Assembly: GCA_905178155.1 (NCBI GenBank)
Contig: CAJINV010000002.1
Coordinates: 4,157,214 to 4,221,213 of the forward strand
Origin: Amoebophrya sp. A120
Taxonomy: Eukaryota; Protista; Dinoflagellata
Length of the DNA: 64,000 bases
Direction: 5' to 3'
Below the pieces are notes generated by a model. That model was not told the origin of the DNA and ran no database searches. It saw only the letters and a program-made list of their open reading frames with translations. Below, piece after piece: positions 1-64,000 of the stretch (positions are counted from its first letter, which is position 1; each line of letters starts with the position of its first letter). Made by a program: the position numbers and the translations under genes.

Positions 1-32
1 TCACAACTACGATAGTACTTTTGCAATGCAGA
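1..32. mobile_element. Introner family A, right end only
   Basis: GATAGTACTTTTGCAATGCAGA right TIR. Confidence 0.7.
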
Positions 33-3000
33 GCTGTATCCTTTCGACAAGGTACCGGCGATGAGTTGCTTGGAGGAAGGAAAAATCCGGTCGATAACAG
101 TCAGTTATGCAAGAAAAAATCTGTGTAAGTCAAAGTCTGTGATGCAGCGCATGCAATACAGTTACGCCTGTCATGCTGGCTAGCCATAAAAAACTCCACT
201 TCTTTTCAAATGTGTTTTCACGTAATATTAGCGGTGCATGAGAGCAGGTTTTCTTGCCATGCAGAGCAAACTTGTCATGCTCTGAGCACTTCAAGACGCT
301 TACACTTACACAGTTGTTTTGTTGCATATCAGTGACGAGGTGAACGCGAAACAGCTGCCCGCCGGCATGACCACTGCTTTCGTGGTGCCGAAAAAGTCAG
401 CTGCAGGGGTTTCCGCGACTAGTACAGCCAGAATCAATATCCCGTACCGAACCACTTCAATTCGCCCGTCAGACGTCGAACTGGTGCCGTATGGCGTTCT
501 CAAACGTTACATTCATTCTCAACTTGTTACATTCATGATTTGTAATGCAAGAACGGCAACAACCAAAGGGACAAGCGTGCTGCTTTCGCATCACAGATTT
601 GGCACAGATTCAGATGCTGTTTAGCCCTGCTTCGGAAATTTGTCATGCGAAGCACCTGCTTGATCATCTGACGGCTTAAGATATTTTTGCATGACAAATT
701 CATGGAACAGTTAAGAATGCAACGTTTGAGAGCCCCATATGCCCCGCTCGCAGCTGTTCGCGTGGCAGTCGACCGTCTTGACCTATTTATGCATTGCAAA
801 TATGTCTGGGTCTGGAAGGAGAAGGTTGCAACTTGTGATGCTACCTCAGGACTCTAAAAAAAATGAAAATCTGTATTCCATGACCAGCAAGAGGAGTCCA
901 GTGTGTGCTATGCGGGGAGGCCATTTCTCATGCGGAGTAGGCATCAGGGAGCCGTCTAAAAATCTGTGATGCTACGTCATGCATTACAGGCGTTATGGGT
1001 CATGGAAAATCTGCATGACAAGTCTTGCAACCTTCCAGACCCAGACACTTTTGCATTTGATACTATTCCGGGACAAACGAGCCCTACGTGGCGACGAATG
1101 GGTTGAGCTATGTGCAGGGCACCCCCGGGCAGATTACCGGCGACTCAACGGACCCCCAGTGGGGACCGGTGGACTCCTTCGGCGTGCACACGGACCAAGA
1201 CAGCAGTAACGCGGGGGCCTGGTGGATCGCGTCGTTTCGGGATAAGAAGCCCAGGTTTGTCCACAAGATGCGGTGGTTTACCAGGGATTGGTTCGATTTT
1301 AAAGCAGCCTTCGGCGCCAAGCTGTATTTTGACGGTAGTCTCAACGCCGATACCATGACCCTGCCCACAGACACAGACGGGTCCTTCACCAACTTGGGCG
1401 CGGGGTCTTCCTTCGAAAATTTCGGGTTTGACGTGATCCTAAACAAGGTCTTCTGGCAGATCAAAATCGAAGTCGTGCCCGCGACGAGGAGCGACGGCAG
1501 CAGCGACAAAAATATCAAAGACCACATTATGGCTTGCTCAGAAGATGTATACAATCTCAAACGTTACAACAGATGAATCTGAAACTTCAACTTGTCTTGC
1601 ATGAACAGCATGAGTACCATACAGAGGCTTGGGCTTTTCGCAGCACAAATTTCGCCAGATTTATTTTCATGGGGTTTGTAGTTCCGAAAGTTGTCATGCG
1701 AAATCGTGTAGCAGTAAGCTAGATCCTGCACTTCTTGCGTCAGAGATTTCCAGACTCTATTGCAACGTTTGAGATTGTAACGTTTGAGCAGGTCATACAC
1801 ATGTTTACGGGCGCGCACTTCTACCAACTCCGTCCCCATCTGGTGAACCTGCCCGCTTACACGGAGGTTCGCGAAAATTACTTCAAGGGAGTGAAACAGG
1901 TTTACGTACTGAGAGGAAAAATTCCCCCTCCCCATATTGGAAACGCGTCCGGCTGACTATTTGCGATGCAGATTTGCGACCACAAATCCTGTCTGTCTTG
2001 CAAGAAGGCAACTCCAGAGAGTTGGCCTCATTCCGCCGGCGGTTTGTAATGCTGTTGGTCCTACGGCGTAGACTTTTGTCATGTTGGGCGCCTATGTCAA
2101 AACGTCTCTGCTCAGGCTTAGCATATGACTGCAGTCCTCTACTGCAAGACAAGTTTACGCAAATCCAGCATCAGAAGTTTCGTTTTGGCAGAAAAAAAAA
2201 GAAAAAAACAAAATGGTCCCCTTGGTCGTCTCAGCTAGCCCGCAAGGGCCCCGTTCCCGCCAGCCGAAAGGCATGGCGTTGGTTGCTCATCATCTCGTCC
2301 TCGCCAGCCCGTAGGCACGGCGCTGCTATCCTGTCGTCGTTAGCGCGAGTCTTTTACTTGAGAGTGGGAACAGGGTTGCTAAATTAAAGACTGCGCCCGC
2401 TAAGGCAGCACCCCCCTTCCCCAAGGGGCCCCCCGGGGCGGGCGCGGTGGCGGCTCTGCTAACGCGGAGCTCCAAAGTCCGACTCTACCTATGCGCATAT
2501 AAAGGTAGGGCGCGCGGAAATAGGTCGGCAAGGTGCTTGAAAGGGGCGTGCTAGCTTTGGGGTTGTCCGTCATCGTGATAGGGTCAACGTGTGTGACCAA
2601 TAGACCCCCAGTATATTCTAGCGCGCAACCGACCACAGAAGCAGTAGCGTTCAACGTTTGTAAGAATAACCCAACAAGGCAACGCTGGAGCTCCACCTTG
2701 CTCGCGGGCTTGGATGGTAAAGCAGGTCAGCCACATCTAGCGCCCACTGGCCGTATGCACGCGTAAGAAATCGGAAACGGTTCGGCGGATGCGGTCGGGT
2801 GGTACCTGTAGGACGTGGAACGGGTGTCCGCCTAGGGGTATTGGCAGGGGCTAAATCTGTTCTAACGCCACGGTATTGGCAGAGGCTAAATCTGTTCTAG
2901 CGCCGCCCTGACAGGAGTCAATCAAAGGTCAAAGCGATGCGATACGGTACGGGGCGGGAGGATTTTTCCTTTTGATAGCGCGCCAGCTCGGTTTTCGACT

Positions 3001-6000
3001 CTTCCCTAAAGCAGAATGAGACGAACGTCCCGACCCAAGCTGACCTGATGGAGCTGAAAGCAGACGGCATGATGCTCACGGCAACCGCGTCGCGGTCCGA
3101 TGGCACCACGTATTCTGCCGCACACGTCTTGAAGTACGAAGCGGGGGTCGTCACCGGTTCGGGTCACGACAACGTGATCAACTATTGCGTGAAGCACGGC
3201 GACGGGAGTAGTTCCACCCAGCCGGAATTCGCGGAATACTTCTGGACCGACCGACTTCCGCGGTTCGTGACCAAGATCCGGCTGTTTAAGGAGACGGGGA
3301 CCAACGGGGATACCATTCAAAACGCGAAAATTTACCTCGACGACGTTTTGGCCGGGACGCTGCCGAAGAAGATCGCTTCCGGGTCGTCCGTATCAAATGC
3401 AAAAATGTCTGTCATGCTGCTTTTGCATGACACAGAAGGTCTGGCATGGAAGCTCTAGCATCACAGGTTTCGTCGAGAAGCTTCCGCAATGCCGAATCTG
3501 CATTACAAGTGCCCGACTTTGATGACAGAAAGTAGTCGGCAGCTTTTGCTGCCTATCATGCATGATAGATTTTTATGTGTTGTGAAATGCGCATCACAAA
3601 TTTGGATTCTTCCAGAGGATCCAGACATGTTTGCATTTGATAGGCCGTCTGTGAACCTCTGTTGAACACCGACTACGCGGGCGACGCTGCATATGGATGT
3701 GTCAGGATCGAAATCAACAAAATCGAAATGATTTGTGATGCATAAACGCGATACCAGTTGGAACCTCAGTTTCCAAGTGGCGCATGACAAATTTCGGGAG
3801 CATCAAAATCCAGTTTGTCATGCTGTTTGGGCAAAGAAGACCGCTCCTGTCATGCTACTCCGGCAGCGCGTCGCCCTTCCCTAAATGGGCTTGCAATCGG
3901 TCTCATTTATTGCCTGCTACCCAACACAGACCTGACTTGCCCTACATTTTACGCATCACAAATTTTTCGATTTTGTCAATTTCAATCCTGACACCCCCAT
4001 ACTGCAACGTCAACGATGACCTCCGGAAAGACGTGGCAGGAATGCGTCCGCGGCTGTGCGGAAAGCTCCACGTGTATGGCGCGGAAAAATCCCCCCTCCC
4101 CATACCAAAGCGGGATACCTTTGAAAATTTGTGATGCTGATTTGAGACCACAAATCGTCTCCGTATTGCAACAAGGCAAATCCAAAAACCTGGCCGCGTT
4201 CTGCAGGTAATTTGTCATGCTGTATGGCCTGCGGAGGACATGCCTGCCTTGCTAGGCGCCTACACCAAAACGCACCTTCTCCCGCTTTGTGACTGCCGGC
4301 ACTCTTCTACTGCAAGACAAGAGAGCCGATTTGTGTACACAAATCCCGCGTCACAGATTGCAAAATGAGGCGCCATAGGCCAGGTTGAAAGCTTCGATCC
4401 AAAAAAGATTCCGACAGCCTGGTACTAGACACTGAAAAGAGCAGCTTTTTCCTCTTATATGATAGCCCTTGACTTGTATACTTTGAGATGTTTTTTGACA
4501 TCACCGGGCCAACTACTGTCAAGGACTCTGCAATCAACATTAGGCATGACACAGCAAACAGAATGGAATGAAGCGAGCTACTTGTAATGCATGATAAAGC
4601 TATCAGCTATAAAAGGGCGAAGCTATTCCGTGGGGAAACAAGAAAAGAAAGAGAAGCAAGAGAAGTAGCCGACGCAGATAAGAAAAGCCACCACAGAGCG
4701 ACGACAGCCATGACAAAACTCCCGCTGCTACTTTCTGAAGCCGCATGAAAGAAGTAGGGGATAAGGGCCATGAGTTGCTTATGCGGGTAAGTTGTGCAAG
4801 GGCTGGACGGGAGGGTAAGTGAGGTCAGAGTGTTGGGGATGTCCTAAGTTGGCAACTATAGGCGTGAGAGGCATTTTCCTATAGTTTTTTACATTTTAAC
4901 CACTACGGCTTCTGTTGCTCTTCTTGAAAGAGCGTCTCGTTGTTGGGCGATCGTTCTGACAGCGCTCCTCTGGGGCTGTCGCGGGGGATGCTTGCGACCA
5001 TATTTTTTGTATAATGATTGGAACATGCCGCGCCTATTAGTACAACGATGGAGATTTGTCCGGCACACCATCGCGAGTCATTTAGATAGGGCGCTTACTC
5101 ATTTTTTTAAGTCTAGGAAAAGACACGCAACTGGGGACGGCACGCTATTGCGCATCTAGCTTCCGCCAAGTCCAGAAGAACGAGCCAAGGACGCTCCCAC
5201 CAATGCAGCAGCGGCCGACCCAGGGTGGTCGAGTGTCGTCCAGGCCGACGGCGGTAGATTCTACTGGAGGCGGGGGCTAGATTTTCAATAGTGGGGGAAA
5301 GATGTCAGGATATGTATGAAGTTTCGTTTCTCTATACCCAAATGCGACCCATATAGGAGCCTTGCTCCTCCGTCAGCATGCGTATAGCATTTGGGTGCAC
5401 TACTGTGTGGAAGGCTCTGCTACTAAAGCTAACTTTTGTCATGAACCCACAGTCAGGTGTCCCGGTCCCGGTTTATATGAGGGGGCACATTGACTCTAGC
5501 TGTAGCATTTCCGAGCGGCCGGATTTCTACAAGCACTGCCTTCGCTCATGCAGTGCTAGTGACATCTTTTAGGGGGGTGCTTACCCTTTTGCATGTTCGA
5601 GTTTGCTTCGTTATTTCTTTTTTTTGATGATGATGATAATGGTTTCTTCTGGCTAGCCCGTCTAAAAAGGGCAATGATCTCCCAAAAGGCATGCTTTGAT
5701 GGGTTTAGGGCTTCGAAGAAATGGCATCGCGTGACGCGTGACGGGAGCACGCAATGTATGCGCAGCGGGCGGGTACCGTTCTCGCCGTAACACAATTCCA
5801 GAAAGAAAGAAAGAGTGATCACATTTTTTTTTTGTGTAGATCACATTTTGTGTAGATCACATTTTTACGTGCGTTTTTTCGGCATCGGCGGCATTCGCAC
5901 TTCGAACCCGGAGTAGTTTCCAAAAGTCCCTCGGCATCTGGGTCATAGTACAGTTTCAGGGTTCCGCGTTTGCTAAATGCACGGCTTTTCGCACTTAGGT

Positions 6001-6876
6001 CACTAGTATCGCCTGTTCCAAATCAGCTCGACCATTTAATATTCGTGGACCTCCCCTTAGAGGAAGCGGGTGCGCTCGGTGGGCCGTTTTCATAGGTTGG
6101 TCATGGGGGACCTGCTCCCCATTTGTAATGCATGACTGGCCGCCGAAGATCTCAGTTTGCATTTGCGTGCTCGAGTACCGGGGCGCAGGAAGGCGAATTA
6201 GTTCTAATAGATATTTTGAAAAATTCTAATCTCTTCGTGCAGCGGCTTACTGCACATACAAATATTCTCGACCGATATCTTTGTATGTGGGCGCGCAGAA
6301 ACTTTTTTTCGATTTACTACGACCCCATCTACCTCCCCTGGTGGACGTCTGCCGCGGCTTACGGCTCTAGACGTTAACTAGGATTCAGTGCGTTGTGCGG
6401 GGTTTAGGGTTCAAAGTAATTTTGTATCTCCCACTGCTGCATGCACTCTGCTGGCGATCTTATCATGCAAAACAACCTCCGGGTTGTTCCCGCGTATCAG
6501 GAGTAGTCCTGGTGCGTGAGGGCCGCAGAAGATGAAGAAAGGTGATGGTTTAGGGGGTTCGCCGATTTTGTACATGTGTGATGCAAAAGATGAAAAGAAT
6601 TTCGCGCGTGGGAGCGCATTAGTAAGCACAACGGGTGGGTGCCGTTCTCACCGTAACACAAGCCCACAAGAACAAGAACATGATCCGCTCCCGCAGGCAA
6701 AAAAAATTTGCGACCACAGATCCTCTCTGTCTTGCACGAAGGCAACCCCACAGGCCCCGCAGTATTATGTAGGCAGTTTGTGATGCTATTGGGCCTACAG
6801 CATAGACGTTTAGCATGCTAAGCACCTAGGCCAGCGCCTCTCTACTCGGGCTTGATATGGGCTTGCAGTCCTCTAG

Positions 6877-6918
<42 letters not shown>

Positions 6919-57900: not shown

Positions 57901-60900
57901 GACGAAAACACTGGTGCACCCAGTAAGCAAGGAAAAAACAAAAAGTGTATACAGTTACACACTGTGTTGCAAAATATGCAAGACAGACGACCTCTGTCAT
58001 GCGCAAAAAGCATGCGAATCTTGTTTCGTGTGTGTTTTGCCTTCTTGTGATCTCTGCATGATAAGTTTTCTCCGTCTGCATGATAAGTTTTCTCCGCAAA
58101 TCTGTGATGCTGGATTCACCACTAATAATGTGGAACTGTAACACTAACACTTTTTCCCGTGGATACCCAGAAACGAGGGTTTATTACCAAGTGGGATACC
58201 GGATCCCGAAACACCTGCGTCTGGATATGGTGTTCTCAAACGTTACATGCTCAACTGTTACATGAATCTGTAATGCAAGAATGGCAAAAACCAAAGGGGG
58301 AAGATTGCAAAAACTGCATTACAAACCCCACGCAGATTTAGGCGGTGTTTAGCCCTTCGCAAATTTGTCATGCGAAGCAGCTTGATCTTGTGGATGATGA
58401 TGGTAGTTTTGCATGACAAATTCATCGGCCTTTCTGACCCTAGATCTCCTGCGGCCGTAGCTGCTTGCGGCGACGGTGCAAAGGTTTTCGATGTGGCGCA
58501 GTCGGGTACTATGCATGACAAATTCATGCAACAGTTGAGAATTATGTAACGTTTGAGAACTCCATACTGGACATTCAGAAGCTCACGGTGTATGGGGTTT
58601 ACTATGCGCCGAGCGCAGTTTATTCCAGAGAAAAAAGCAGGCAGGGCGTATTTGTAATGCGAAAATAAATAAGTACGCAGAAAGATCTGCCATGGGTGGG
58701 CCCACAGCATGCTGCTTAGGATATGCAATACAGATTTTTTTGTGTAAGTATTTATTTTTGCATTTTTACAAACGGAAACGTGACCTGCCTGCTTTTTTCT
58801 GTGTGATACAGTTCCCCACATCTCGGAGAGCACGACCGGGGGCCGAATCGCCACTATCCTATGTAAAAACGTCCCCACACCAGAGTCAGGATGGGGATTT
58901 TGCAACACAAACCTAGGAGTTTTGTGAGTCACGCATGACAAGATGCACTCCGCAGTGTAGTGCTGGTTAGCAAGTGCAGCCGCATCACAGATTCATCTGC
59001 TCATCCTGTTCACAGCATCACAAATTCCAAAACACGATTGGAAATGGCTCTCATGGGGATGCGCATTACAAGTCTTCCTGTCTTTGCAAATCTGCATTAC
59101 AACTCTGGTGTGGGTACGCTTTTACTCAGGATAGCCACCGCCACAGGGACGGGGGGACCTGCCCACGACTCCTTCACAGCCTCTATCAAATGTAAAAATG
59201 TCTGGGTGTGGAAGGGTTGGAACTTGTGCTGCAAACTCTGGAACACACAAAAATTTGTGTTGCATGAGCGCCAAAAGCTGTCCACTTCTTGGCACGCAAG
59301 TAGGAAGTTTCTCATGCGGGAGAGGCATCATGAGGCGTGCTCAAAACCTGTGATGCTTTTGCCTGCATCAGACGCCATTTGCGTGATCCGAAATATGCAT
59401 GACAAATCTCGCAATCTTCCAGACCCAGACATTTTTACATTTGATAGCCTCGAGTACGTCACGAATCACTTCGGAATACATGGTGTCCGGGGTGCACGGC
59501 CAGTCCTGCCACCGCACCTGCATGCTCGCGAACGGGCGCGTGTGCAATCCGCTTGTGCCGGTCAGTATGCATTGCAAAAGTATCGTACCTACGTAGTAAT
59601 TGCAGTTATGCATTACAGGTCCCTTTCTTAAGGCAAATCAGCATGAGAAATTCCATTCGTCATGCTAAGAAAATTTGTCATGCAATTTACACTTGGTACG
59701 ATGCTTTTGCAATGCATAGTCAGCGACTACGACAGCGACACGAAGATGACCGACGACTTGCACATATCCTGTGCAAAAGTATCGTACTCGTATTGCAATC
59801 ATGCATTTACAAATTTTCTTTTGAAGGTAAATCCGCATTACAAATTTCATTCCTCATGCTGAGGAAATTTGTAATGCATTTATACGAGTACGATACTCTT
59901 GCAATTCATAGCACAGTGAGATGGGGATCACGGCGTCCAGCGTGTGCGGCAGCGACATTATCCTGTGCAAAAGTATCGTACTCGTACAAATGCAAGTCTT
60001 GCATTTACAAATCTTGTCTCCAAGGCAAATCTGCATTCCAAATTCTATTTGTATTTCTCATGCTGGGGAAATTTGTAATGCATTTGTACGAATGCGATGC
60101 TTTTGCACAGGATAGACATTTCCGCGGAGGACACGCTGATCAACACCGTGGGCACCGGGAACAAACTATGGATTGTAAAAATGTCTGGGTCTGGAAGAAT
60201 GCAAGATTTGTGATGCAGGTTTTCCAGGACCCATGAGGTCTGGAATGCGAAACCCAGCATGACAGATTCTTCGAGATGATCACTATCATGCCTTTCGTGC
60301 ATGAGAGACTCCCTCTCAACTTGGTCAAAAGCGGCCAGCTTTTGGTACTCACGCAACACAGATTTTTTCATCATTCAGATTTAGCATGGCAAGTTATGGT
60401 CTTGCAGACCCAGACATTTTTGCATTTGATACAAACCCGGATCGCCCAAAATCATGCGGGGCTCGACGCACAGCGGCGCCCTGAAGTGTGTGCGCACTTT
60501 ATCAAAGTGAAAAAAGCCCCCACCCCATACTCAAAAGACAATTTGTGTTGCTGGATTTGTGTACACAAGTGAGCTTTGTATTGCAGCAGGAGCTTGTCGG
60601 CATATGCTGAGCCCATTTATTGGGCATTCATCCGGCTAGCAGCGGAGCATGAGAAACAAGTCTGACAGAGGCGAAAACGCATGACAGACTCGCTGTACAA
60701 TGCACCACATGGGTGCCGTTTGCCTTGTACGCAAGGCAGAGCTTACTTGTGGTCACAAATCACCATCACAAATGTCCTTTTTGACGTGGGGAGGGGGGAT
60801 TTTTCCTTTTGATACACCTCCGAGCCCACGGCGTCCTTTGCGTTTCCGCACGGCGGGTGCGCGGTGGTGCAGCGGAACGTGCCGGCTGCCACAGTATGAC

Positions 60901-63823
60901 AGTGAACAACTCCCCCTCGGCCTCGTTCCCGTCATTTGTAGGGCATGAACGGCATTACAAACACCAGTACATCAGGTGGACCCTGTGCATGACAAGTTCT
61001 TCATGCGCCGATTGTAGTACTGTTTGGATTTCCGGAATTTGTCATGCACACGGTCGTACCACAAGGTAGCAACTGAGTCTGGGCTATTGCATGACAAATG
61101 ACGGGGAGGTGGGGGAGATGTGCACTGTCATACACATCCAACCACATCTACGCGGGCTACCCGATTTGCTACTGCGAGGGGCTTTCCAATATCCTGTGCA
61201 AAAGTATCGTACTCGTATTGCAATCATGCATTACAAATTTCTTTCTCAAGTCAAATCCGCATTACAAATTTTATTTCTCATGCTGAGGAAATTTGTAACG
61301 CATTGATACGAGTGCGATACTTTTGCAGTGCATATCCAACAGCTTTTCCCACACCACCAAGGCGACCAGTGATCCGTACACCCGTGTGAAAGTCTCAGAA
61401 TGGAAATCCTCAGAGTGGAAATAATTTGTGATGCATGAAATGCGACGCAAAAAAGACGGCATTGCAGAGGACGCAATGCTGGAGGCCGACTAGTGCCCTC
61501 CTACGGGTTAAGATTTGGAGTGCTGATTAGCACGAGAGAAGGGCTGCACCCCTTTACGTTAACCAGCATGAGGACAAACATGCTTTGAGTGCCCGGGAAA
61601 TTTGTCATGCGCCGCCTAGAAGTGGCGCCTCAACTGGACTGGTTTTTTGTATTGCAAACTAGTTCGATTGCCGCTTTAAGGATTTCCAACCTGAGGCTTT
61701 AATAACCCGCGCCCTGCGGTTCCTCAGCGGCGCGCCCGTGGTCCCGAAGGCCGACCTGACGGAGCGGTTCTTCCTGTATCAAGTGCAAATACTTATGTCT
61801 GGGTCTGGATAAGATTGCCAGGTGTGTCATGCATATTTTGAATGACCCATGATGTCTGTGCTGCATGCCCTGGCATCACAGATTTTTCGAGAGGGGCTTT
61901 GCGATGCCTCTACCAAATGAGAAATGCCCTCTGCGCGTAGCACAGACTGGAGTTTTCTTTTCTTGCTGGTCATGCAATAGCAAATTTTTTAGAATCCAGA
62001 GAGAGCATCACAAGGTTAGAACCTTCCAGACATCCAGGGATATTCGCAATCCATATCCTGACGCGCATGCTGAAATTCCAGCCGACCGCGAACATGATCT
62101 CCCCCGACCCCGTGCTGGTGCAGAAGTACCAGAGTTTTCACAAGAACTGGATTTTGGCCGCGAACTCGGTGGCCGCCGGCGGCCAGGCTGCCGTTGACGC
62201 CACCCACGCCACGCGTTACGAAAACTGCAACGACGTATGCGCTATGAATTGCAAAAGCATCGTACTAGTACAAATCGCATGACAAATTTCCTCACCATGA
62301 GAAACGGAATTTGTAATGCGGACTCAACTCAAGAAGGAGATTTGTAATGCATACTGGTGGCTGCGATAGCGACTACTACGAGTGCGATACTTTTGCATAC
62401 GATATGCGCCCGGCAGAGTATGTCGCTCTACGGCGTGAAGAATCGGCGAAAGTGCAACGGTATCAATTGTAAAAATGTCTGGGTCTGGAAGAGTGCCAGG
62501 CTTGTCATGCAGATTTTACATGACTCATGAGGTCTGGTATGTAGGACTTAGCATGACAGATTCTGTTTCTGCGAGAGTTCTATAATGCCTATTCTGCATG
62601 AGAAACTGCCTCTCGATTAGGTCAAAAGTGGACAACTTTTGGTAATCATGCAACGCAGATTTTTGCATGCTTCAGATTTAGCATGACAAGTTGCATTCTT
62701 CCAGACCCAGACACTTTTACACTTCATAAACGGAAACGAGCTGGCGAAGATTCTCCAGAGGCGGCACATTGAGGCGGTGTTGCGGCATATGGCAGGAAAA
62801 AACTGTTTCACTGTAAACTTGTGATGCAGAAAATGGATCGCAGAGATGTGTGCTGTCATGCTAGTACACATGCAAGACAATGGATTTCTAGCCGTGTTTA
62901 TTTCCCTTAGCAACCCCGCATGGCAAATTTCCGTTGTTATGTAAAGCAAACTTGTGATGCAAAACTTGCAGAATCCTTACAGTGAAACACTTTTCTCGTA
63001 GGATGCGGCAGGTGCTGGCCGATCGCGACTTTGAGTGCCAAGCCGACGATACGATGCCTACACCTACTATTGGGAGCAAGCTCACCTGCGGGCTGTATGA
63101 CCAGCTGAACGCGGCGTCGGAAAATTTTTTTGACGAGTCAAAGGGCAACGGAGAATGGACCGGCACCGGATCTTGCACTTGGCGAGGGGACTCCTTTCAC
63201 CGGGTGCTTTATGAACTGCAAAAGTACTATCGTGTTAGTAGTAATTGCATGACATCAAATTTTCTCCGCATGACAAATGGACTTTGTCATGGTGAATTGC
63301 CTAAGAAGGCAGCTCTGTCATGCGCAGTAGATTGCGGCTGCTGTTACTACGAGTGCGATTCATACTCTTTCCAATCCATACTCTTTGCTACTGCGAAGAC
63401 GTGGACTTTTTCGACCACCCGGAAGATACTCCCCTGTCGCTGCCCGTATCAAAAGGAAAAATCCCCCCTCCCCATATCAAAAAGGAAATCTGTGATGCTG
63501 GATTTGCATACAGAAATCAGATTTGTCTTGCAGTGCTAGGACTGCACGCAGGTCGCAAGCCTAGGTAGGCGTCTTGTGGTGTAGGCGCCTAGCATTGTAG
63601 GCGGCTGCCCTGTAGTCCTTACAGCATTACAAAGCGCCTGCATAACATGGCGGACAGCCTGGGCTTGGTTTCCTGCAAGACAGGCTTGGCGTGTGGCCAC
63701 AAATCTGCATCGCAAATTTTCCGACGGATGCGGTTTCAATATCAGGAGGGGGGACTTTTCCTTGCAATAGCCCGACGCGGTGTTGTATGATCAGGGCACC
63801 TGGCACCTGGCCCCGAATCTGCA
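33..63823 (+). CDS. Giant multi-exon gene (partial, about 107 exons, roughly 3,900 aa in window): Cys-rich extracellular protein with galactose-binding/F5-8C-like, PAN/Apple-like, Thr/Pro-rich and ConA-like modules
   Basis: Removing each TIR element plus one 5-bp repeat gives a continuous stop-free frame on each side of the 28.9-kb gap, e.g. SGSSV|CEPLLNTDYAGDAA|TSTMTSGKTWQECVRGCAESSTC|KHLVH...GYCHFKT. Domain names come from motif recognition, not HMM searches. Confidence 0.9.
106..328. mobile_element. Introner family G (TATGCAAGAAAAAA TIR)
   Basis: TIR; TSD tcagt. Confidence 0.9.
329..489 (+). CDS. Exon (SDEVNAKQLPAG...VELVP)
   Basis: Between introners; in frame with neighbours. Confidence 0.85.
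490..739. mobile_element. Introner family F (TATGGCGTTCTCAAACGTTAC TIR)
   Basis: TSD tgccg/tgccc. Confidence 0.9.
788..1062. mobile_element. Introner family B (TAT..AAAATGTCTGGGTCTGGAA TIR)
   Basis: TSD ctatt. Confidence 0.9.
1063..1527 (+). CDS. Exon, galactose-binding-like domain
   Basis: VHT...AWWIASF...FVHKMRWF...QIKIE; core of ORF 1088..1576. Confidence 0.85.
1528..1797. mobile_element. Introner F-like
   Basis: TSD cacat. Confidence 0.88.
1798..1906 (+). CDS. Exon (HMFTGAHFYQL...KQVY)
   Basis: In frame after TSD removal. Confidence 0.85.
1907..2977. mobile_element. Introner family C (..GGAAAAATCCCCCTCCCCATA TIR) with about 750-bp foreign insert
   Basis: Diverged TSD ttacg/gcgcg, but 5-nt rule restores frame. 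Confidence 0.85.
2978..3390 (+). CDS. Exon, galactose-binding-like domain N-terminal part
   Basis: AEYFW...FVTKIRLF...AKIYLDDVLAGTLP. Confidence 0.85.
3391..3642. mobile_element. Introner B
   Basis: TSD gtccg/ggccg. Confidence 0.9.
3692..4001. mobile_element. Introner family D (TATGG..GTGTCAGGATCGAAAT TIR)
   Basis: TSD ctgca. Confidence 0.9.
4002..4074 (+). CDS. Exon, PAN/Apple core (TWQECVRGCAESSTC)
   Basis: C-x3-C-x5-C motif continuing in frame at 8129. Confidence 0.85.
6877..6918. repeat. (TAC)n microsatellite at gap edge
   Basis: Direct reading. Confidence 0.95.
6919..7836. other. Assembly gap
   Basis: N run. Confidence 1.
8129..8238 (+). CDS. Exon, PAN/Apple C-terminal part (KHLVH...GYCHFKT)
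   Basis: Joins 4074 across a 4-kb introner. Confidence 0.85.
8239..8385. mobile_element. Introner family A (TAT..GCAAAAGTATCGTA TIR)
   Basis: TSD gtcgg. Confidence 0.9.
8404..9443. mobile_element. Introner family E (TATCCT..AAAAACGTCCCC TIR) with nested element
   Basis: TSD cgcga. Confidence 0.88.
8520..9243 (+). mobile_element. Helentron/Helitron2-like non-autonomous element
   Basis: Asymmetric 12-bp IR GTAGTGAGGTCA (8520-8531) / TGACCTCACTAC (9206-9217), then small hairpin CCGC-GGAC-GCGG. Confidence 0.5.
9475..9735. mobile_element. Introner B
   Basis: TSD gacat. Confidence 0.9.
9785..10838. mobile_element. Introner E with nested Helitron
   Basis: TSD cccga/cctga. Confidence 0.88.
10067..10807 (-). 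mobile_element. Non-autonomous Helitron-like element, copy 1
   Basis: A|TTACTATCTATT...hairpin...CTGG|T, no TSD; homologous to 55747-56518. Confidence 0.78.
10892..11051. mobile_element. Introner A
   Basis: TSD cacga. Confidence 0.9.
11052..11196 (+). CDS. Exon (KIKLES...LAFCGLQVF), galactose-binding-like domain C-terminus
   Basis: Matches repeated L-x-CG-L-x-V/IF terminal strand. Confidence 0.85.
11311..13103 (-). mobile_element. Non-autonomous Helitron-like element
   Basis: Perfect 11-bp-stem hairpin 11322-11344, then CTAG|T on - strand; host CTCGTA|TAAATGCAT rejoins without TSD. Confidence 0.78.
12457..12689. repeat. 12-bp minisatellite with internal inversion
   Basis: GATATATCTGGG units switch to CCCAGAYATRTC near 12510. 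Confidence 0.95.
13113..13866. mobile_element. Non-autonomous TIR element at an ATGCAT site
   Basis: TIR GACGTGGCCTGGGTA / TACCGAGGCGACGTC (13/15); ATGCAT on both flanks; GCACCGAG subterminal repeats. Confidence 0.75.
14265..14538. mobile_element. Introner B
   Basis: TSD tgacg/tggcg. Confidence 0.9.
14588..14900. mobile_element. Introner D (reverse orientation vs 3692)
   Basis: TSD tccga/ttcga. Confidence 0.9.
14935..15376. mobile_element. Introner D with 106-bp insert
   Basis: TSD cacct/cgcct. Confidence 0.88.
15437..15682. mobile_element. Introner B
   Basis: TSD atgcg. Confidence 0.9.
15718..16026. mobile_element. Introner D
   Basis: TSD gaccg. Confidence 0.9.
16027..16211 (+). CDS. 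Exon (NFGMPVW...CRGFQV...FLCKLH)
   Basis: In frame; PAN-like cysteines. Confidence 0.85.
16212..16381. mobile_element. Introner A
   Basis: TSD cgaga. Confidence 0.9.
16419..16697. mobile_element. Introner E
   Basis: TSD cgacc. Confidence 0.9.
16745..16899. mobile_element. Introner A
   Basis: TSD cacgg. Confidence 0.9.
16930..17174. mobile_element. Introner family H (TATGACAGTGCACAACTCCCCC TIR)
   Basis: TSD cccgt. Confidence 0.9.
17217..17529. mobile_element. Introner C
   Basis: TSD gggga. Confidence 0.9.
17639..17796. mobile_element. Introner A
   Basis: TSD cggta. Confidence 0.9.
17900..22053. mobile_element. Introner G with 3.9-kb nested element
   Basis: TSD ctcga; flanking exons join as YNDRHYSTSECYYLC. 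Confidence 0.88.
18029..21958 (+). mobile_element. Helitron/Helentron-like non-autonomous element with internal 0.6-0.75-kb tandem units
   Basis: Subterminal IR AATGATCATTAG (about 18044) / CTACTGATCATT (about 21884); 3' hairpin GGGCCGCCC-TTCA-GGGCGACCC; end CTTG|T. Confidence 0.65.
22097..22303. mobile_element. Introner G
   Basis: TSD ccttc. Confidence 0.9.
22345..22597. mobile_element. Introner G-like
   Basis: TSD aagcg. Confidence 0.88.
22653..22942. mobile_element. Introner E
   Basis: TSD cactg. Confidence 0.9.
22978..23131. mobile_element. Introner A
   Basis: TSD tgtga. Confidence 0.9.
23163..23375. mobile_element. Divergent introner (G-like)
   Basis: TSD cggcc; weak TIR. Confidence 0.82.
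23431..23738. mobile_element. Introner D
   Basis: TSD gcgcc; ends ACA. Confidence 0.9.
23739..24056 (+). CDS. Exon (GSSFGLVKG...VNPSAK)
   Basis: In frame; ORF 23762..24067. Confidence 0.85.
24057..24389. mobile_element. Introner C
   Basis: TSD gaaaa. Confidence 0.9.
24429..24749. mobile_element. Introner C
   Basis: TSD gctgc. Confidence 0.9.
24760..25061. mobile_element. Introner E
   Basis: TSD actgt; ends ATG. Confidence 0.9.
25165..25308. mobile_element. Introner A
   Basis: TSD cgcag. Confidence 0.9.
25366..25618. mobile_element. Introner B
   Basis: TSD gtacc/gcacc. Confidence 0.9.
25656..25896. mobile_element. Introner G
   Basis: TSD cccac. Confidence 0.9.
25897..26106 (+). CDS. Exon, galactose-binding-like domain (FCYY...PFWEW...LTKLRVWN)
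   Basis: In frame. Confidence 0.85.
26107..26370. mobile_element. Introner B
   Basis: TSD ttacc. Confidence 0.9.
26427..26692. mobile_element. Introner B
   Basis: TSD cgcgc; ends ATG. Confidence 0.9.
26693..26957 (+). CDS. Exon (KTLRIQ...LILCGLELF)
   Basis: In frame. Confidence 0.85.
26958..27120. mobile_element. Introner A
   Basis: TSD ccttg. Confidence 0.9.
27167..27423. mobile_element. Introner B
   Basis: TSD accaa. Confidence 0.9.
27472..27741. mobile_element. Introner B
   Basis: TSD acggc. Confidence 0.9.
27792..28053. mobile_element. Introner B
   Basis: TSD tcggg. Confidence 0.9.
28112..28363. mobile_element. Introner B
   Basis: TSD acgtg/acctg. Confidence 0.9.
28434..28876. mobile_element. 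Introner B left part, interrupted near 28537 by an unclassified insert that runs into the gap
   Basis: Left TIR only. Confidence 0.7.
28877..29314. other. Assembly gap
   Basis: N run; may hide exons. Confidence 1.
29315..29558. mobile_element. Introner B (left tip in gap)
   Basis: Both TIR arms visible. Confidence 0.85.
29620..29941. mobile_element. Introner C
   Basis: TSD gctcg. Confidence 0.9.
29942..30121 (+). CDS. Exon (LWICGLEIF)
   Basis: In frame. Confidence 0.85.
30122..30277. mobile_element. Introner A
   Basis: TSD cgagg. Confidence 0.9.
30278..30407 (+). CDS. Exon, Pro-rich linker
   Basis: PVPGPGPAPTPAPPAGPPPPPPEP. Confidence 0.85.
30408..30783. mobile_element. Introner E with 73-bp insert
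   Basis: TSD gctgc/gccgc. Confidence 0.88.
30784..31005 (+). CDS. Exon, PAN-like (SVKACDAECRSTSLCTH)
   Basis: Continues in frame at 33470. Confidence 0.85.
31006..33469. mobile_element. Introner A with 2.3-kb unclassified insert (about 31145-33449)
   Basis: TSD gcact; exons join as SLCTHFVID. Confidence 0.88.
33470..33686 (+). CDS. Exon (FVID...CHFYKSGC)
   Basis: In frame. Confidence 0.85.
33687..33924. mobile_element. Introner F
   Basis: TSD cgcac/cccac. Confidence 0.9.
33982..34324. mobile_element. Introner C
   Basis: TSD caact; ends ATG. Confidence 0.9.
34325..34469 (+). CDS. Exon, PAN-like (YTKAECRYLCAATEKC)
   Basis: In frame. Confidence 0.85.
34470..34748. mobile_element. Introner E
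   Basis: TSD ggcac/gccac. Confidence 0.9.
34809..35042. mobile_element. Introner H
   Basis: TSD gcaga/gcaaa. Confidence 0.9.
35043..35576 (+). CDS. Exon, Cys-rich/PAN-like
   Basis: ORF 35059..35616; AEKCRYLCEKTPEC. Confidence 0.88.
35577..35883. mobile_element. Introner D
   Basis: TSD gacaa. Confidence 0.9.
35974..36187. mobile_element. Introner G
   Basis: TSD actgc. Confidence 0.9.
36253..36504. mobile_element. Introner B
   Basis: TSD ccacc. Confidence 0.9.
36545..36813. mobile_element. Introner F
   Basis: TSD acgca; ends ATG. Confidence 0.9.
36870..37197. mobile_element. Introner C
   Basis: TSD tacga/tatga. Confidence 0.88.
37198..37350 (+). CDS. Exon (FCTLF...AWWKATF)
   Basis: In frame. 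Confidence 0.85.
37351..37564. mobile_element. Introner H
   Basis: TSD cgcac. Confidence 0.9.
37581..37886. mobile_element. Introner D
   Basis: TSD cgcca. Confidence 0.9.
37911..38122. mobile_element. Introner G
   Basis: TSD ccggg. Confidence 0.9.
38123..39792 (+). CDS. Largest exon (about 555 aa): several PAN/Apple-like repeats plus galactose-binding-like domain parts
   Basis: Core of ORF 38029..39855; QCDADCRALENC, ECRYLCAMTPGC, ACYYLCSKTPGC, SWWEAEF. Confidence 0.92.
39793..40119. mobile_element. Introner C
   Basis: TSD tagtc; ends AAA. Confidence 0.88.
40202..40523. mobile_element. Introner D
   Basis: TSD aacgc/atcgc. Confidence 0.9.
40524..40824 (+). CDS. Exon (LCFCGIWIYE plus Pro/Gly/Thr linker)
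   Basis: In frame. Confidence 0.87.
40825..41059. mobile_element. Introner F
   Basis: TSD gacta. Confidence 0.9.
41121..41265. mobile_element. Introner A
   Basis: TSD acctg. Confidence 0.9.
41421..41675. mobile_element. Introner B
   Basis: TSD accac/gccac. Confidence 0.9.
41676..41976 (+). CDS. Exon, start of ConA/laminin-G-like segment
   Basis: Continues to FNYFRLLKVGTKVH|LFFNG; fold call is inference. Confidence 0.75.
41977..42267. mobile_element. Introner E
   Basis: TSD gcaaa. Confidence 0.9.
42347..42568. mobile_element. Introner G
   Basis: TSD gcttg. Confidence 0.9.
42622..42932. mobile_element. Introner C
   Basis: TSD gcatc. Confidence 0.9.
42980..43122. mobile_element. Introner A
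   Basis: TSD caccg; ends TAG..GTA. Confidence 0.88.
43183..43463. mobile_element. Introner B-like
   Basis: TSD actct. Confidence 0.88.
43531..43695. mobile_element. Introner A
   Basis: TSD ccacc. Confidence 0.88.
43870..44750. repeat. 12-bp AGGCGAAACGAC-type minisatellite blocks (two direct, one inverted)
   Basis: Direct reading. Confidence 0.85.
44850..46680. repeat. Degenerate tandem array rich in palindromic GAATATTC/TTCGCGAA
   Basis: Recurring TTCGGGCGGGGGTTGTGTTCTGGAATATTC. Confidence 0.85.
46750..52460. repeat. Satellite array, about 33 units of about 175 bp
   Basis: Recurring GCCAGCCTTGCCCCGCTCTGTTCC...GGCTATCGCGCGAAGCCCC. Confidence 0.92.
52887..53174. mobile_element. Introner B-like
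   Basis: TSD cggcg. Confidence 0.88.
53230..53382. mobile_element. Introner A
   Basis: TSD agctg/agctc. Confidence 0.9.
53426..53714. mobile_element. Introner E
   Basis: TSD cattc/aactc; frame restored. Confidence 0.85.
53856..54007. mobile_element. Introner A
   Basis: TSD gcagc. Confidence 0.9.
54008..54277 (+). CDS. Exon (AAASKVAET...EAERN)
   Basis: In frame. Confidence 0.82.
54278..54539. mobile_element. Introner B
   Basis: TSD gaacg. Confidence 0.9.
54594..54907. mobile_element. Introner D
   Basis: TSD cacga. Confidence 0.9.
55061..55210. mobile_element. Introner A
   Basis: TSD caagg. Confidence 0.9.
55325..55606. mobile_element. Introner E
   Basis: TSD gacca; ends AGA. Confidence 0.87.
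55710..56787. mobile_element. Introner family I with nested Helitron
   Basis: TSD tgaag. Confidence 0.88.
55747..56518 (+). mobile_element. Non-autonomous Helitron-like element, copy 2
   Basis: A|TTACTA...hairpin 56491-56510...CTGG|T. Confidence 0.78.
56788..57032 (+). CDS. Exon (WDLVWASDH...QVAA)
   Basis: In frame. Confidence 0.82.
57033..57141. mobile_element. Minimal 109-bp introner (family J)
   Basis: 30-bp perfect TIR; TSD ccgca. Confidence 0.92.
57188..57454. mobile_element. Introner B
   Basis: TSD ggggg/ggcgg. Confidence 0.88.
57525..57738. mobile_element. Introner H
   Basis: TSD aacag. Confidence 0.9.
57739..57923 (+). CDS. Exon (VIPFYEP...LVHP)
   Basis: In frame. Confidence 0.82.
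57924..58165. mobile_element. Introner G
   Basis: TSD cccag; starts TAA. Confidence 0.88.
58226..58566. mobile_element. Introner F with 86-bp insert
   Basis: TSD ctgga. Confidence 0.9.
58621..58808. mobile_element. Introner G-like
   Basis: TSD cagtt. Confidence 0.88.
58855..59133. mobile_element. Introner E
   Basis: TSD gccac; very similar to 34470-34748. Confidence 0.9.
59184..59446. mobile_element. Introner B
   Basis: TSD gcctc; very similar to 26427-26692. Confidence 0.9.
59566..59718. mobile_element. Introner A
   Basis: TSD gtcag. Confidence 0.9.
59765..59910. mobile_element. Introner A
   Basis: TSD gcaca. Confidence 0.9.
59959..60114. mobile_element. Introner A
   Basis: TSD gacat. 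Confidence 0.9.
60167..60431. mobile_element. Introner B
   Basis: TSD caaac. Confidence 0.9.
60500..60814. mobile_element. Introner C-like
   Basis: TSD cactt/cacct. Confidence 0.88.
60895..61132. mobile_element. Introner H
   Basis: TSD cacag/cacat. Confidence 0.88.
61190..61334. mobile_element. Introner A
   Basis: TSD tccaa. Confidence 0.9.
61385..61704. mobile_element. Introner I
   Basis: TSD acccg; starts TGT. Confidence 0.88.
61777..62055. mobile_element. Introner B
   Basis: TSD tcctg. Confidence 0.9.
62056..62242 (+). CDS. Exon (TRMLKFQ...NCNDVCA)
   Basis: In frame. Confidence 0.82.
62243..62404. mobile_element. Introner A
   Basis: TSD tgcgc. Confidence 0.9.
62461..62728. mobile_element. 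Introner B
   Basis: TSD aacgg. Confidence 0.9.
62788..63005. mobile_element. Introner G
   Basis: TSD cggca; ends ATG. Confidence 0.9.
63006..63209 (+). CDS. Exon (VLADRDFEC...HRVL)
   Basis: In frame; continues CYCED. Confidence 0.82.
63210..63380. mobile_element. Introner A-like
   Basis: TSD tgctt/ctctt; frame restored. Confidence 0.85.
63447..63769. mobile_element. Introner C
   Basis: TSD gcccg. Confidence 0.9.
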
Positions 63824-64000
63824 TATCCTGAGTAAAAACGTACCCACACCAGAGTCAGGATGGTGAATCTGCTAGACAAATCAGCCAGCCTTGGTTGTTT
63901 GGCATGACAAGTTTGTCCGCGTAGTGTAGTGCTGTTTGAGCTAGTTTAGCAGCATTACAGATCTAGTATCTCGTGCTGATTGGAGCATGACAAATTTCAA
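63824..64000. mobile_element. Introner E (runs off window)
   Basis: Left TIR TATCCTGAGTAAAAACGTACCC. Confidence 0.85.

What the first reader, a model, noticed from the sequence alone, without database searches (positions are those of the whole stretch)
33..64000. One gene split by about 108 TIR transposon-like introns removed by an 'element plus one 5-bp repeat' rule, with no GT-AG
Seen: every interruption is a TAT...ATA-type inverted-repeat element flanked by a 5-bp direct repeat of arbitrary sequence. Deleting the element and one repeat copy rebuilds about 3,900 stop-free codons with recognisable domains spanning junctions. The rule holds even where the two repeat copies have diverged (1907, 53426, 63210). 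Established: IR/DR-bounded non-canonical introner elements were described in Amoebophrya. Inference: a precise excision system that recognises paired ends and uses a fixed 5-nt offset, effectively reversing transposon insertion.
Basis: partly seen in the sequence, partly recalled or inferred. Interest (0 to 1): 0.95.

Follow-up and report, generated by a model that had tools for sequence, protein, structure and literature searches.

The report
Transposon introns cut one-plus-four
One large surface-protein gene of the algal parasite Amoebophrya is interrupted by 107 small jumping-gene insertions that lack normal splice signals yet are missing, to the base, from transcript assemblies where checked; such introns are already described, but the cut likely falls one base before and four bases after each element, a clue to their still unsolved removal mechanism.

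Summary
Confirmed, but a known system. The window holds 105 complete and 2 cut-off TAT…ATA inverted-repeat elements, each flanked by a 5-bp repeat (81 of 105 exact). Removing element plus 5 nt gives 3,893 stop-free codons. Transcript-like contigs match this for 22 of 31 junctions laid. Two annotated Amoebophrya sp. A120 proteins match over 47 of 105 junctions. These are the A120 introner elements of Farhat et al. 2021, whose splicing mechanism is unsolved.

What I add: the 5 nt are not one whole repeat copy. RNA keeps upstream bases 1-2 and downstream base 5, and a Rab gene in a second assembly needs upstream base 4. The intron is likely N-TAT…ATA-NNNN. Its second base is T in 312 of 312 oriented elements, while the mirror base varies in 11. 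This suggests a relaxed spliceosome reading N|U and cutting by distance, not mere hairpin pairing. The register rests on two single sites, and the machinery is untested. The scan noted similar introns before in other genomes.

The parts
33..63823 (+). Host gene (part): 106 exons, 11,682 nt, 3,893 codons, median exon 55 nt. Likely a surface adhesin with PAN/apple and discoidin-like modules and Thr/Pro linkers. Open at both window ends.
   Evidence: P0001 = aa 2300-3893 and P0004 = aa 1566-1786, both 100%; X3 contig runs 3,395 nt beyond 63206
1..32 (+). 3' end of an element cut off by the window start (ends AGA)
   Evidence: sequence
106..30783 (+). Elements #1-49 (TAT to ATA; inferred intron = start-1 to end+4): 106-328, 490-739, 788-1062, 1528-1797, 1907-2977, 3391-3642, 3692-4001, 4075-8128, 8239-8385, 8404-9443, 9475-9735, 9785-10838, 10892-11051, 11197-14193, 14265-14538, 14588-14900, 14935-15376, 15437-15682, 15718-16026, 16212-16381, 16419-16697, 16745-16899, 16930-17174, 17217-17529, 17639-17796, 17900-22053, 22097-22303, 22345-22597, 22653-22942, 22978-23131, 23163-23375, 23431-23738, 24057-24389, 24429-24749, 24760-25061, 25165-25308, 25366-25618, 25656-25896, 26107-26370, 26427-26692, 26958-27120, 27167-27423, 27472-27741, 27792-28053, 28112-28363, 28434-29558, 29620-29941, 30122-30277, 30408-30783
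   Evidence: supported by frame only (no RNA or annotated protein in hand); #8 and #46 contain assembly gaps 6919-7836 and 28877-29314
31006..43695 (+). Elements #50-73: 31006-33469, 33687-33924, 33982-34324, 34470-34748, 34809-35042, 35577-35883, 35974-36187, 36253-36504, 36545-36813, 36870-37197, 37351-37564, 37581-37886, 37911-38122, 39793-40119, 40202-40523, 40825-41059, 41121-41265, 41421-41675, 41977-42267, 42347-42568, 42622-42932, 42980-43122, 43183-43463, 43531-43695
   Evidence: #51-54 inside P0004, #63-73 inside P0001
43762..63769 (+). Elements #74-105: 43762-52804, 52887-53174, 53230-53382, 53426-53714, 53856-54007, 54278-54539, 54594-54907, 55061-55210, 55325-55606, 55710-56787, 57033-57141, 57188-57454, 57525-57738, 57924-58165, 58226-58566, 58621-58808, 58855-59133, 59184-59446, 59566-59718, 59765-59910, 59959-60114, 60167-60431, 60500-60814, 60895-61132, 61190-61334, 61385-61704, 61777-62055, 62243-62404, 62461-62728, 62788-63005, 63210-63380, 63447-63769
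   Evidence: all inside P0001; #79-83 and #87-103 absent from transcript-like contigs
60890..61137 (+). Element #97 with repeats CACAG / CACAT. The transcript keeps downstream base 5, so the cut is at or before base 4.
   Evidence: joint 60889>61133, both=4, in X3 and X4; Ser in P0001
63205..63385 (+). Element #104 with repeats TGCTT / CTCTT. The transcript keeps upstream bases 1-2.
   Evidence: contig pieces end at 63206 in X3 and X4
11283..13984 (+). Element nested inside #14. Its first base is A rather than T and its repeats are GCTGC / GCTCT; likely released from splicing constraint.
24754..24758 (+). 5-nt micro-exon between #34 and #35 (4+1 register)
38127..39791 (+). Longest exon, 1,665 nt, free of elements; carries PAN domains
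   Evidence: PAN_4 33.1 bits vs cut-off 27; PAN_1 23.1 vs 21.4
63824..64000 (+). 5' part of an element cut off by the window end

Best explanation
The interruptions are short non-coding inverted-repeat insertions with a 5-bp target duplication, likely non-autonomous DNA transposons, that are absent from transcript assemblies where checked and are likely cut out of the pre-mRNA one base before the TAT and four bases after the ATA by a relaxed U2-type spliceosome. Shown: the anatomy, the fixed +5 length, and a cut inside the repeat (after base 2 to 4). Inferred from one further site: the cut follows base 4, so the intron reads N-UAU(G/C)…AUA-NNNN. Inferred: N|U is read as a GU donor with the G relaxed. 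The 3' cut is likely set by distance from the terminal AUA, perhaps with one of its A's (-7 or -5) as branch point, since there is no AG. Because both element ends carry the same motif, either orientation and any target sequence restore the original coding sequence, so insertions are nearly harmless and accumulate.
For: Anatomy and +5. In a second assembly 265 of 336 elements, called without using the repeat, have an exact 5-bp repeat. In a Rab5-like gene there, the element junctions read by eye restore conserved motifs with +5. Register: downstream base 5 kept at #97; upstream bases 1-2 kept at #64, #67, #77 and #104. At L036:1743-1896 upstream base 4 gives Ala and downstream base 4 gives Asp; 0 of 33 distinct Rab homologues have a charged residue there and 10 have Ala. 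All 9 top A120 splice pairs in Farhat Table S4 have T as second base. Directional reading: first base T in 312 of 312 oriented elements, mirror base not A in 11 of 312 (symmetric expectation p about 0.001); an independent frame caller gives 130 of 130 vs 3 of 130. Context: U2, U4, U5, U6 and 83 of 89 spliceosomal proteins were found in A120 and U1 snRNA was not. Fritillaria's transposon introns need the U2 spliceosome. Stentor's putative branch A sits at position 10 of 15-nt introns.
Against: The upper bound rests on one site (#97) and the lower bound on one site in another assembly. Codon-usage direction tests are uninformative at bases 4-5. No drift towards canonical signals: G at +1 in 103 of 305, AG at the 3' end in 24 of 305, and no +1/-1 covariation (p=0.15). 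No branch-point motif is enriched on the sense strand. How Farhat et al. placed slidable junctions is not stated in what I read. X3 and X4 are only guessed to be RNA, no DNA run was laid as control, and the annotated proteins may come from the same RNA. Euglena's comparable introns are thought to be non-spliceosomal.
Confidence: 0.5

Rival explanations
1. A dedicated non-spliceosomal machine, as proposed for Euglena nonconventional introns, binds the paired element ends, cuts at fixed offsets (1 and 4 nt) and ligates the exons, releasing a circle or linear RNA.
For: Neither end has a canonical dinucleotide. Ends are complementary at bases 1-3 and 9-14 (91-101 of 105 Watson-Crick). Both orientations work, a 5-nt exon and a 9-kb intron are handled, and U1 snRNA is undetected. 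The Euglena code N3CDG…CH'GN5-6 has the same design. 9 of 11 last-base changes are to G, which would keep a U·G pair.
Against: No G·U excess over A·C along the repeat (203 vs 197; core bases 54 vs 52) and no sense/antisense energy difference. Base 3 tolerates C·A (5 cases) as readily as U·G at that pair. Bases 4-7 pair in only 48-64 of 105.
Confidence: 0.3
2. The length is fixed but the cut floats within the repeat, so either copy can contribute bases to the mRNA.
For: With a codon-model frame caller, repeat mismatches were 23 synonymous vs 15 non-synonymous, above the 2:1 ceiling for one free copy (p=0.02 after transition correction). Farhat Fig. 3 legend calls the site variable.
Against: Not reproduced with an ORF-length caller (ratio 1.9-2.2, p about 0.5-0.6) or in the window (p=0.32). 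X3 and X4 agree at #97 and #104.
Confidence: 0.08
3. The elements are removed from DNA or skipped during copying (ciliate-like excision, polymerase jumping, or reverse-transcriptase template switching at the repeats), not spliced from RNA.
For: The internal motif TGTNATGC lies on both strands like a DNA-binding site (255 copies in 23.5 kb of elements, 0 in 12.3 kb of exons). No DNA run was laid.
Against: The assembly keeps all elements. X3 and X4 have zero depth in 4 of the first 5 bins inside the 9-kb intron, as RNA would. The first base is constrained by transcript direction. An artefact cannot keep 3,893 codons open or a Rab gene intact.
Confidence: 0.05
4. One reading: cuts fall exactly at an element end and one whole repeat copy leaves with it.
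For: It gives the same protein at the 81 of 105 junctions with exact repeats.
Against: Removing the whole upstream copy fails at #64, #67, #77 and #104. Removing the whole downstream copy fails at #97.
Confidence: 0.05

Closest known systems
Introner elements / non-canonical introns of Amoebophrya sp. A120 (Farhat et al. 2021, PMC7789003)
   Same: Same organism by protein identity (CAD7933286.1, CAD7933284.1). Inverted repeat starting TAT, then about 7 variable bases and an A run; 5-bp direct repeat in their example; repeated families; 29,850 copies reported.
   Different: The paper gives repeats of 3-5 nt and calls the border variable or unknown. Here the repeat is always 5 bp, the cut is likely 4+1, and the second intron base is invariant. 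The public annotation holds at least two separate fragments of this one gene.
Euglena nonconventional introns (PMC12501133; review PMC11282704)
   Same: MITE-like, paired ends, arbitrary bases outside the motif, cut at a fixed distance from the motif, longer spacer on the 3' side.
   Different: Motif CDG…CH'G with 3 and 5-6 nt spacers and a purine after the cut, against TAT…ATA with likely 1 and 4. Excised as circles in Euglena; product unknown here.
Fritillaria borealis transposon-derived introns (bioRxiv 10.1101/2025.08.15.670264)
   Same: Genome-wide non-GT/AG introns from non-autonomous inverted-repeat transposons.
   Different: There the termini are specific (AG/AC, AG/AT) and the U2 spliceosome was shown to be needed. 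Here the first and last intron bases are arbitrary and the machinery is untested.
Introners of Micromonas and other eukaryotes (PMC11282704, PMC12130899)
   Same: Non-autonomous TIR transposons with target duplications that make introns on insertion.
   Different: Those supply or co-opt GT/GC and AG. Gozashti et al. 2025 note tens of introners per A120 gene and a TIR family with LTR-element-like ORFs; no such coding copy was seen here.

Membership tests
Amoebophrya A120 introner elements | Inverted repeat starting TAT, about 7 variable bases, then an A run | tested here: met
   TAT in 100 of 105 5' ends; A at bases 11, 12, 13 in 82, 85, 99 of 105; definition
Amoebophrya A120 introner elements | 3-5 nt direct repeat at the exon borders | tested here: met
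   5 bp, exact in 81 of 105
Amoebophrya A120 introner elements | Repeated families, removed from RNA, non-canonical borders | tested here: met
   100 of 106 fall in 6 similarity clusters; 22 of 31 junctions laid match transcript-like contigs; 2 of 105 are GT-AG in the 4+1 register
Amoebophrya A120 introner elements | Occurs in the A120 genome | tested here: met
   100% identity to named A120 proteins
MITE / non-autonomous TIR DNA transposon | Terminal inverted repeats, constant target duplication, many copies, both orientations, no coding capacity | tested here: met
   target bases unbiased, p>0.1 at all 5 positions
MITE / non-autonomous TIR DNA transposon | An autonomous partner with a transposase (needed to name a superfamily) | tested here: inconclusive
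   Frames of 120 aa or more in the 12 introns over 370 nt looked low-complexity by eye (not scanned); 0 of 56 long ORFs scanned (of 123 found) in second-assembly loci hit a transposase family
U2-type spliceosomal intron | GT/GC…AG termini | tested here: not met
   3 of 105 in any register inside the repeat
U2-type spliceosomal intron | U at intron position +2 | tested here: met
   312 of 312 if the 4+1 register holds; the register is inferred
U2-type spliceosomal intron | Branch point, lariat product, dependence on U2/U6/Prp8 | not testable with these tools
   No strand-biased branch motif; needs bench data
Euglena-type nonconventional intron | N3CDG…CH'GN5-6 followed by a purine | tested here: not met
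   Motif is TAT…ATA; first exon base is a purine in 182 of 305, near background
Euglena-type nonconventional intron | Selected base-pairing of the two ends | tested here: inconclusive
   Ends are complementary, but no G·U over A·C excess except at base 1
Euglena-type nonconventional intron | Released as a full-length circle | not testable with these tools
   No raw reads covered this gene's exons

The most novel reading that the evidence does not exclude
Amoebophrya A120 has a second, spliceosome-independent splicing machine that undoes any insertion of its TAT…ATA transposons. It would read a U one base inside the 5' cut and measure four bases past the 3' end, an RNA-level reversal of transposition evolved independently of Euglena's, possibly from a domesticated transposase or an endonuclease-ligase pair.
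Probability: 0.25. Interest if true: 0.85.

Novelty: already known. Interest (0 to 1): 0.5.

Why it matters
How A120 removes tens of thousands of introns with no GT-AG and no detectable U1 snRNA has been open since 2021. A fixed code (N|UAU…AUA-NNNN|) turns that into direct tests: branch mapping at -7/-5, mutation of the +2 U, and the U6 sequence. If the spliceosome does it, it works with both terminal G's relaxed and no AG. If not, it is a second independent case of non-spliceosomal mRNA splicing. In practice the +5 rule repairs gene models: one gene of more than 3,893 codons is annotated as fragments. Diverged target duplications also give a general way to place cuts in 'slidable' introns.

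Tried and rejected
(1) Both repeat copies under coding constraint (floating cut): suggested by one frame caller, lost with a second. (2) Repeat bases 4-5 specially conserved: seen in the window (non-third-position mismatches 14 of 210 vs 1 of 141), not in the second assembly (10 vs 5 non-synonymous). (3) An RNA helix under selection: no support beyond base 1. (4) Hidden GT-AG near the borders: 11 of 105 have a pair in some register from -6 to +11, 3 of them inside the repeat. (5) Element+2 or +8: open or nearly open frames, but 43 gaps against P0001 and wrong contig offsets. (6) Annotated proteins over the informative 5' junctions (#5, #12, #15, #49): none found (weak negatives). (7) The SNF2 site L014:4809-5133 falls on a non-conserved residue. 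Of 38 non-synonymous sites listed, only the Rab site could be scored against homologues. (8) The Rab tally used 37 of 76 loci that had the motif, giving 33 distinct rows. (9) No transposase found; no match in viral contigs; no Rfam match. (10) No RNA holder is on record for the gene, and raw-read runs X10 and X11 gave only element-like hits; neither is evidence on expression. (11) No whole genome is held, so U6 could not be examined. (12) No earlier scan notes exist for this genome.
Full report
OBSERVATION. A scan for TAT…ATA pairs with an exact 5-bp flank gave the seeds. A nearest-neighbour scan for element ends and manual pairing then gave 105 complete elements, two cut by the window ends and one nested copy. 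Lengths are 109-9,043 nt (median 264), 51,584 nt in all. The strict pattern finds 63 in the window and none in 20 shuffles. Repeat mismatches are 0/1/2/3 in 81/21/2/1 of 105. Removing element+5 gives 3,893 stop-free codons, and out-of-phase rules leave at least 37 stops. One +2 register is also stop-free, so the frame alone does not fix the rule.

EVIDENCE FOR +5. On 50001-64000, contigs of runs X3 and X4 (guessed RNA) skip 243, 150 and 325 nt at #97-99, each element+5. Only 15 of 95 joints were displayed. Offsets between longer pieces (404, 738, 105 and 49 nt) equal the prediction for #79-83 and #87-103, 22 of the 31 complete elements laid. Four of the first five bins inside the 9-kb intron have zero depth in both runs, as RNA would. 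P0001 matches aa 2300-3893 without a gap over 43 junctions and P0004 over 4 more, while +2 and +8 give 43 gaps. These models may rest on the same RNA.

IDENTITY. P0001 and P0004 are named Amoebophrya sp. A120 proteins. Farhat et al. describe A120 introner elements with TAT, seven variable bases and an A run, 3-5 nt direct repeats (5 bp in Fig. S19), 29,850 copies, no U1 snRNA and an unknown border position. The finding is that system. The host protein has PAN domains and a discoidin/F5-8 look-alike module (score 0.96, a lead). Profiles built from paralogues alone find modules spanning junctions #26-31, #50, #51-54, #55-56, #60-62 and #63-64. An adhesin role is inferred from these domains.

ELEMENTS. 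100 of 106 fall into six clusters, best pairs are 94% identical, and family members lie in both orientations. The motif TGTNATGC or its complement occurs 255 times in the 95 short elements and never in exons; I read it as a likely transposase-binding subterminal repeat (inference). Long introns are family elements with unrelated DNA inserted. A pattern search found the same families in a second assembly (151 loci, JACKZZ01 contigs, copies up to 97% identical). Of 336 elements called there without using the repeat, 265 have an exact 5-bp repeat and no other length stands out. Target bases are unbiased.

WHERE THE CUT FALLS. Where the two repeats differ, the mRNA shows which copy is kept. Upstream bases 1-2 are kept at #104 and at #64, #67 and #77. 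Downstream base 5 is kept at #97. So the cut is after base 2, 3 or 4. In a Rab5-like gene of the second assembly the repeats differ at base 4, giving Ala or Asp in the last helix. Among 33 distinct homologues the column has A10 C5 V4 I3 T3 S3 G2 L2 F1 and no charged residue, so upstream base 4 is kept. With a fixed register the intron is N-TAT…ATA-NNNN. Farhat Table S4 fits this, with T second in 9 of 9 listed A120 pairs, but how the authors placed slidable junctions is unclear. I put this register at about 0.65.

MECHANISM. Oriented by transcript, the first element base is T in 105 of 105 window elements and 207 of 207 from the second assembly, while the mirror base departs from A in 11 of 312. 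A second frame caller agrees. The element is therefore read directionally. Along the rest of the inverted repeat G·U and A·C are equally common and the two strands fold alike, so there is no sign of a selected RNA helix. In the 4+1 register the invariant base is +2 and the 5' end reads N-UAU(G/C), like a GU donor with G relaxed (the donor consensus is recalled). The 3' end is a U-rich run, AUA and four free bases. A relaxed spliceosome that places the 3' cut by distance is my best reading, with precedents in Fritillaria and in Stentor's near-terminal putative branch A. Against it: no drift to G at +1 or AG at the end, no branch motif, and the Euglena parallel. Nothing here tests the machinery directly.

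UNEXPLAINED. In the second assembly the repeat starts at codon position 3 in 99 of 200 sites (65 of 130 by the other caller; the null is uniform). That is a phase-0 excess under the 4+1 cut. The window gene does not show it (35 of 105).

LITERATURE SEEN. PMC7789003: passages, sections 11-12 and supplement text; figures not visible, including Fig. 3, S17 and S19-S25, which may already show the register or the U6 sequence. PMC12130899, PMC11282704, PMC12005148, PMC12787238 and bioRxiv 2025.08.15.670264: passages only (Gozashti datasets and preprint supplements not seen). PMC12501133: abstract, one results section, passages. PMC9505925: abstract and section 2.1. Roy 2023, Henriet 2019 and Guminska 2021: only as cited by others. 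Searches showed no paper stating the cut position or machinery for A120; subscription papers are not covered.

VERDICT. A real and striking locus of a published system, with a new and testable refinement of the splice code. Still open: raw-read proof of the register, a DNA control, and the machinery.

Noticed in passing
window 33-63823: One continuous frame is held in the public A120 annotation as at least two fragments (CAD7933284.1, CAD7933286.1). P0001 starts at an internal Met and ends 37 aa past the window, while a transcript contig runs 3,395 nt beyond 63206.
   Followed up: partly
window 43762-52804: 9-kb intron: a short-family element with about 8.9 kb inserted, holding GC-rich degenerate tandem repeats and internal inverted repeats at 43937-44738; no depth in most of the bins laid.
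   Followed up: partly
window 9785-10838 and 55710-56787: Two introns of different families carry the same inserted segment of about 780 nt (80.5% identical, opposite orientation), so a second mobile element inserts into introners. In #12 it appears to have replaced the family's own 3' part.
   Followed up: no
window 12460-12640: 12-nt tandem array with an inverted second half inside the nested element of #14.
   Followed up: no
window 38127-39791: A 1,665-nt exon with no insertion in a gene whose median exon is 55 nt; possibly recent duplication or intron loss.
   Followed up: no
L036:1743-3181: Rab5-like gene with four element introns and two apparent GT-AG introns; the GT-AG ones contain traces of the element motif by eye, as if old elements had become canonical.
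   Followed up: partly
L001-L151 (JACKZZ01 contigs): A second assembly with the same element families, so the system extends beyond the window's assembly; phase bias of insertions there is unexplained.
   Followed up: partly
L044:1841-2974 (-): 378-aa ORF with a motif that resembles GIY-YIG nucleases (recalled); no Pfam match at E 0.1.
   Followed up: partly
window 54455-54539, 56680-56787, 61394-61476: Raw RNA reads of run X10 match only element ends with foreign flanks, one beginning at an adaptor-like sequence (recalled): element copies from other loci that stay in abundant transcripts.
   Followed up: no
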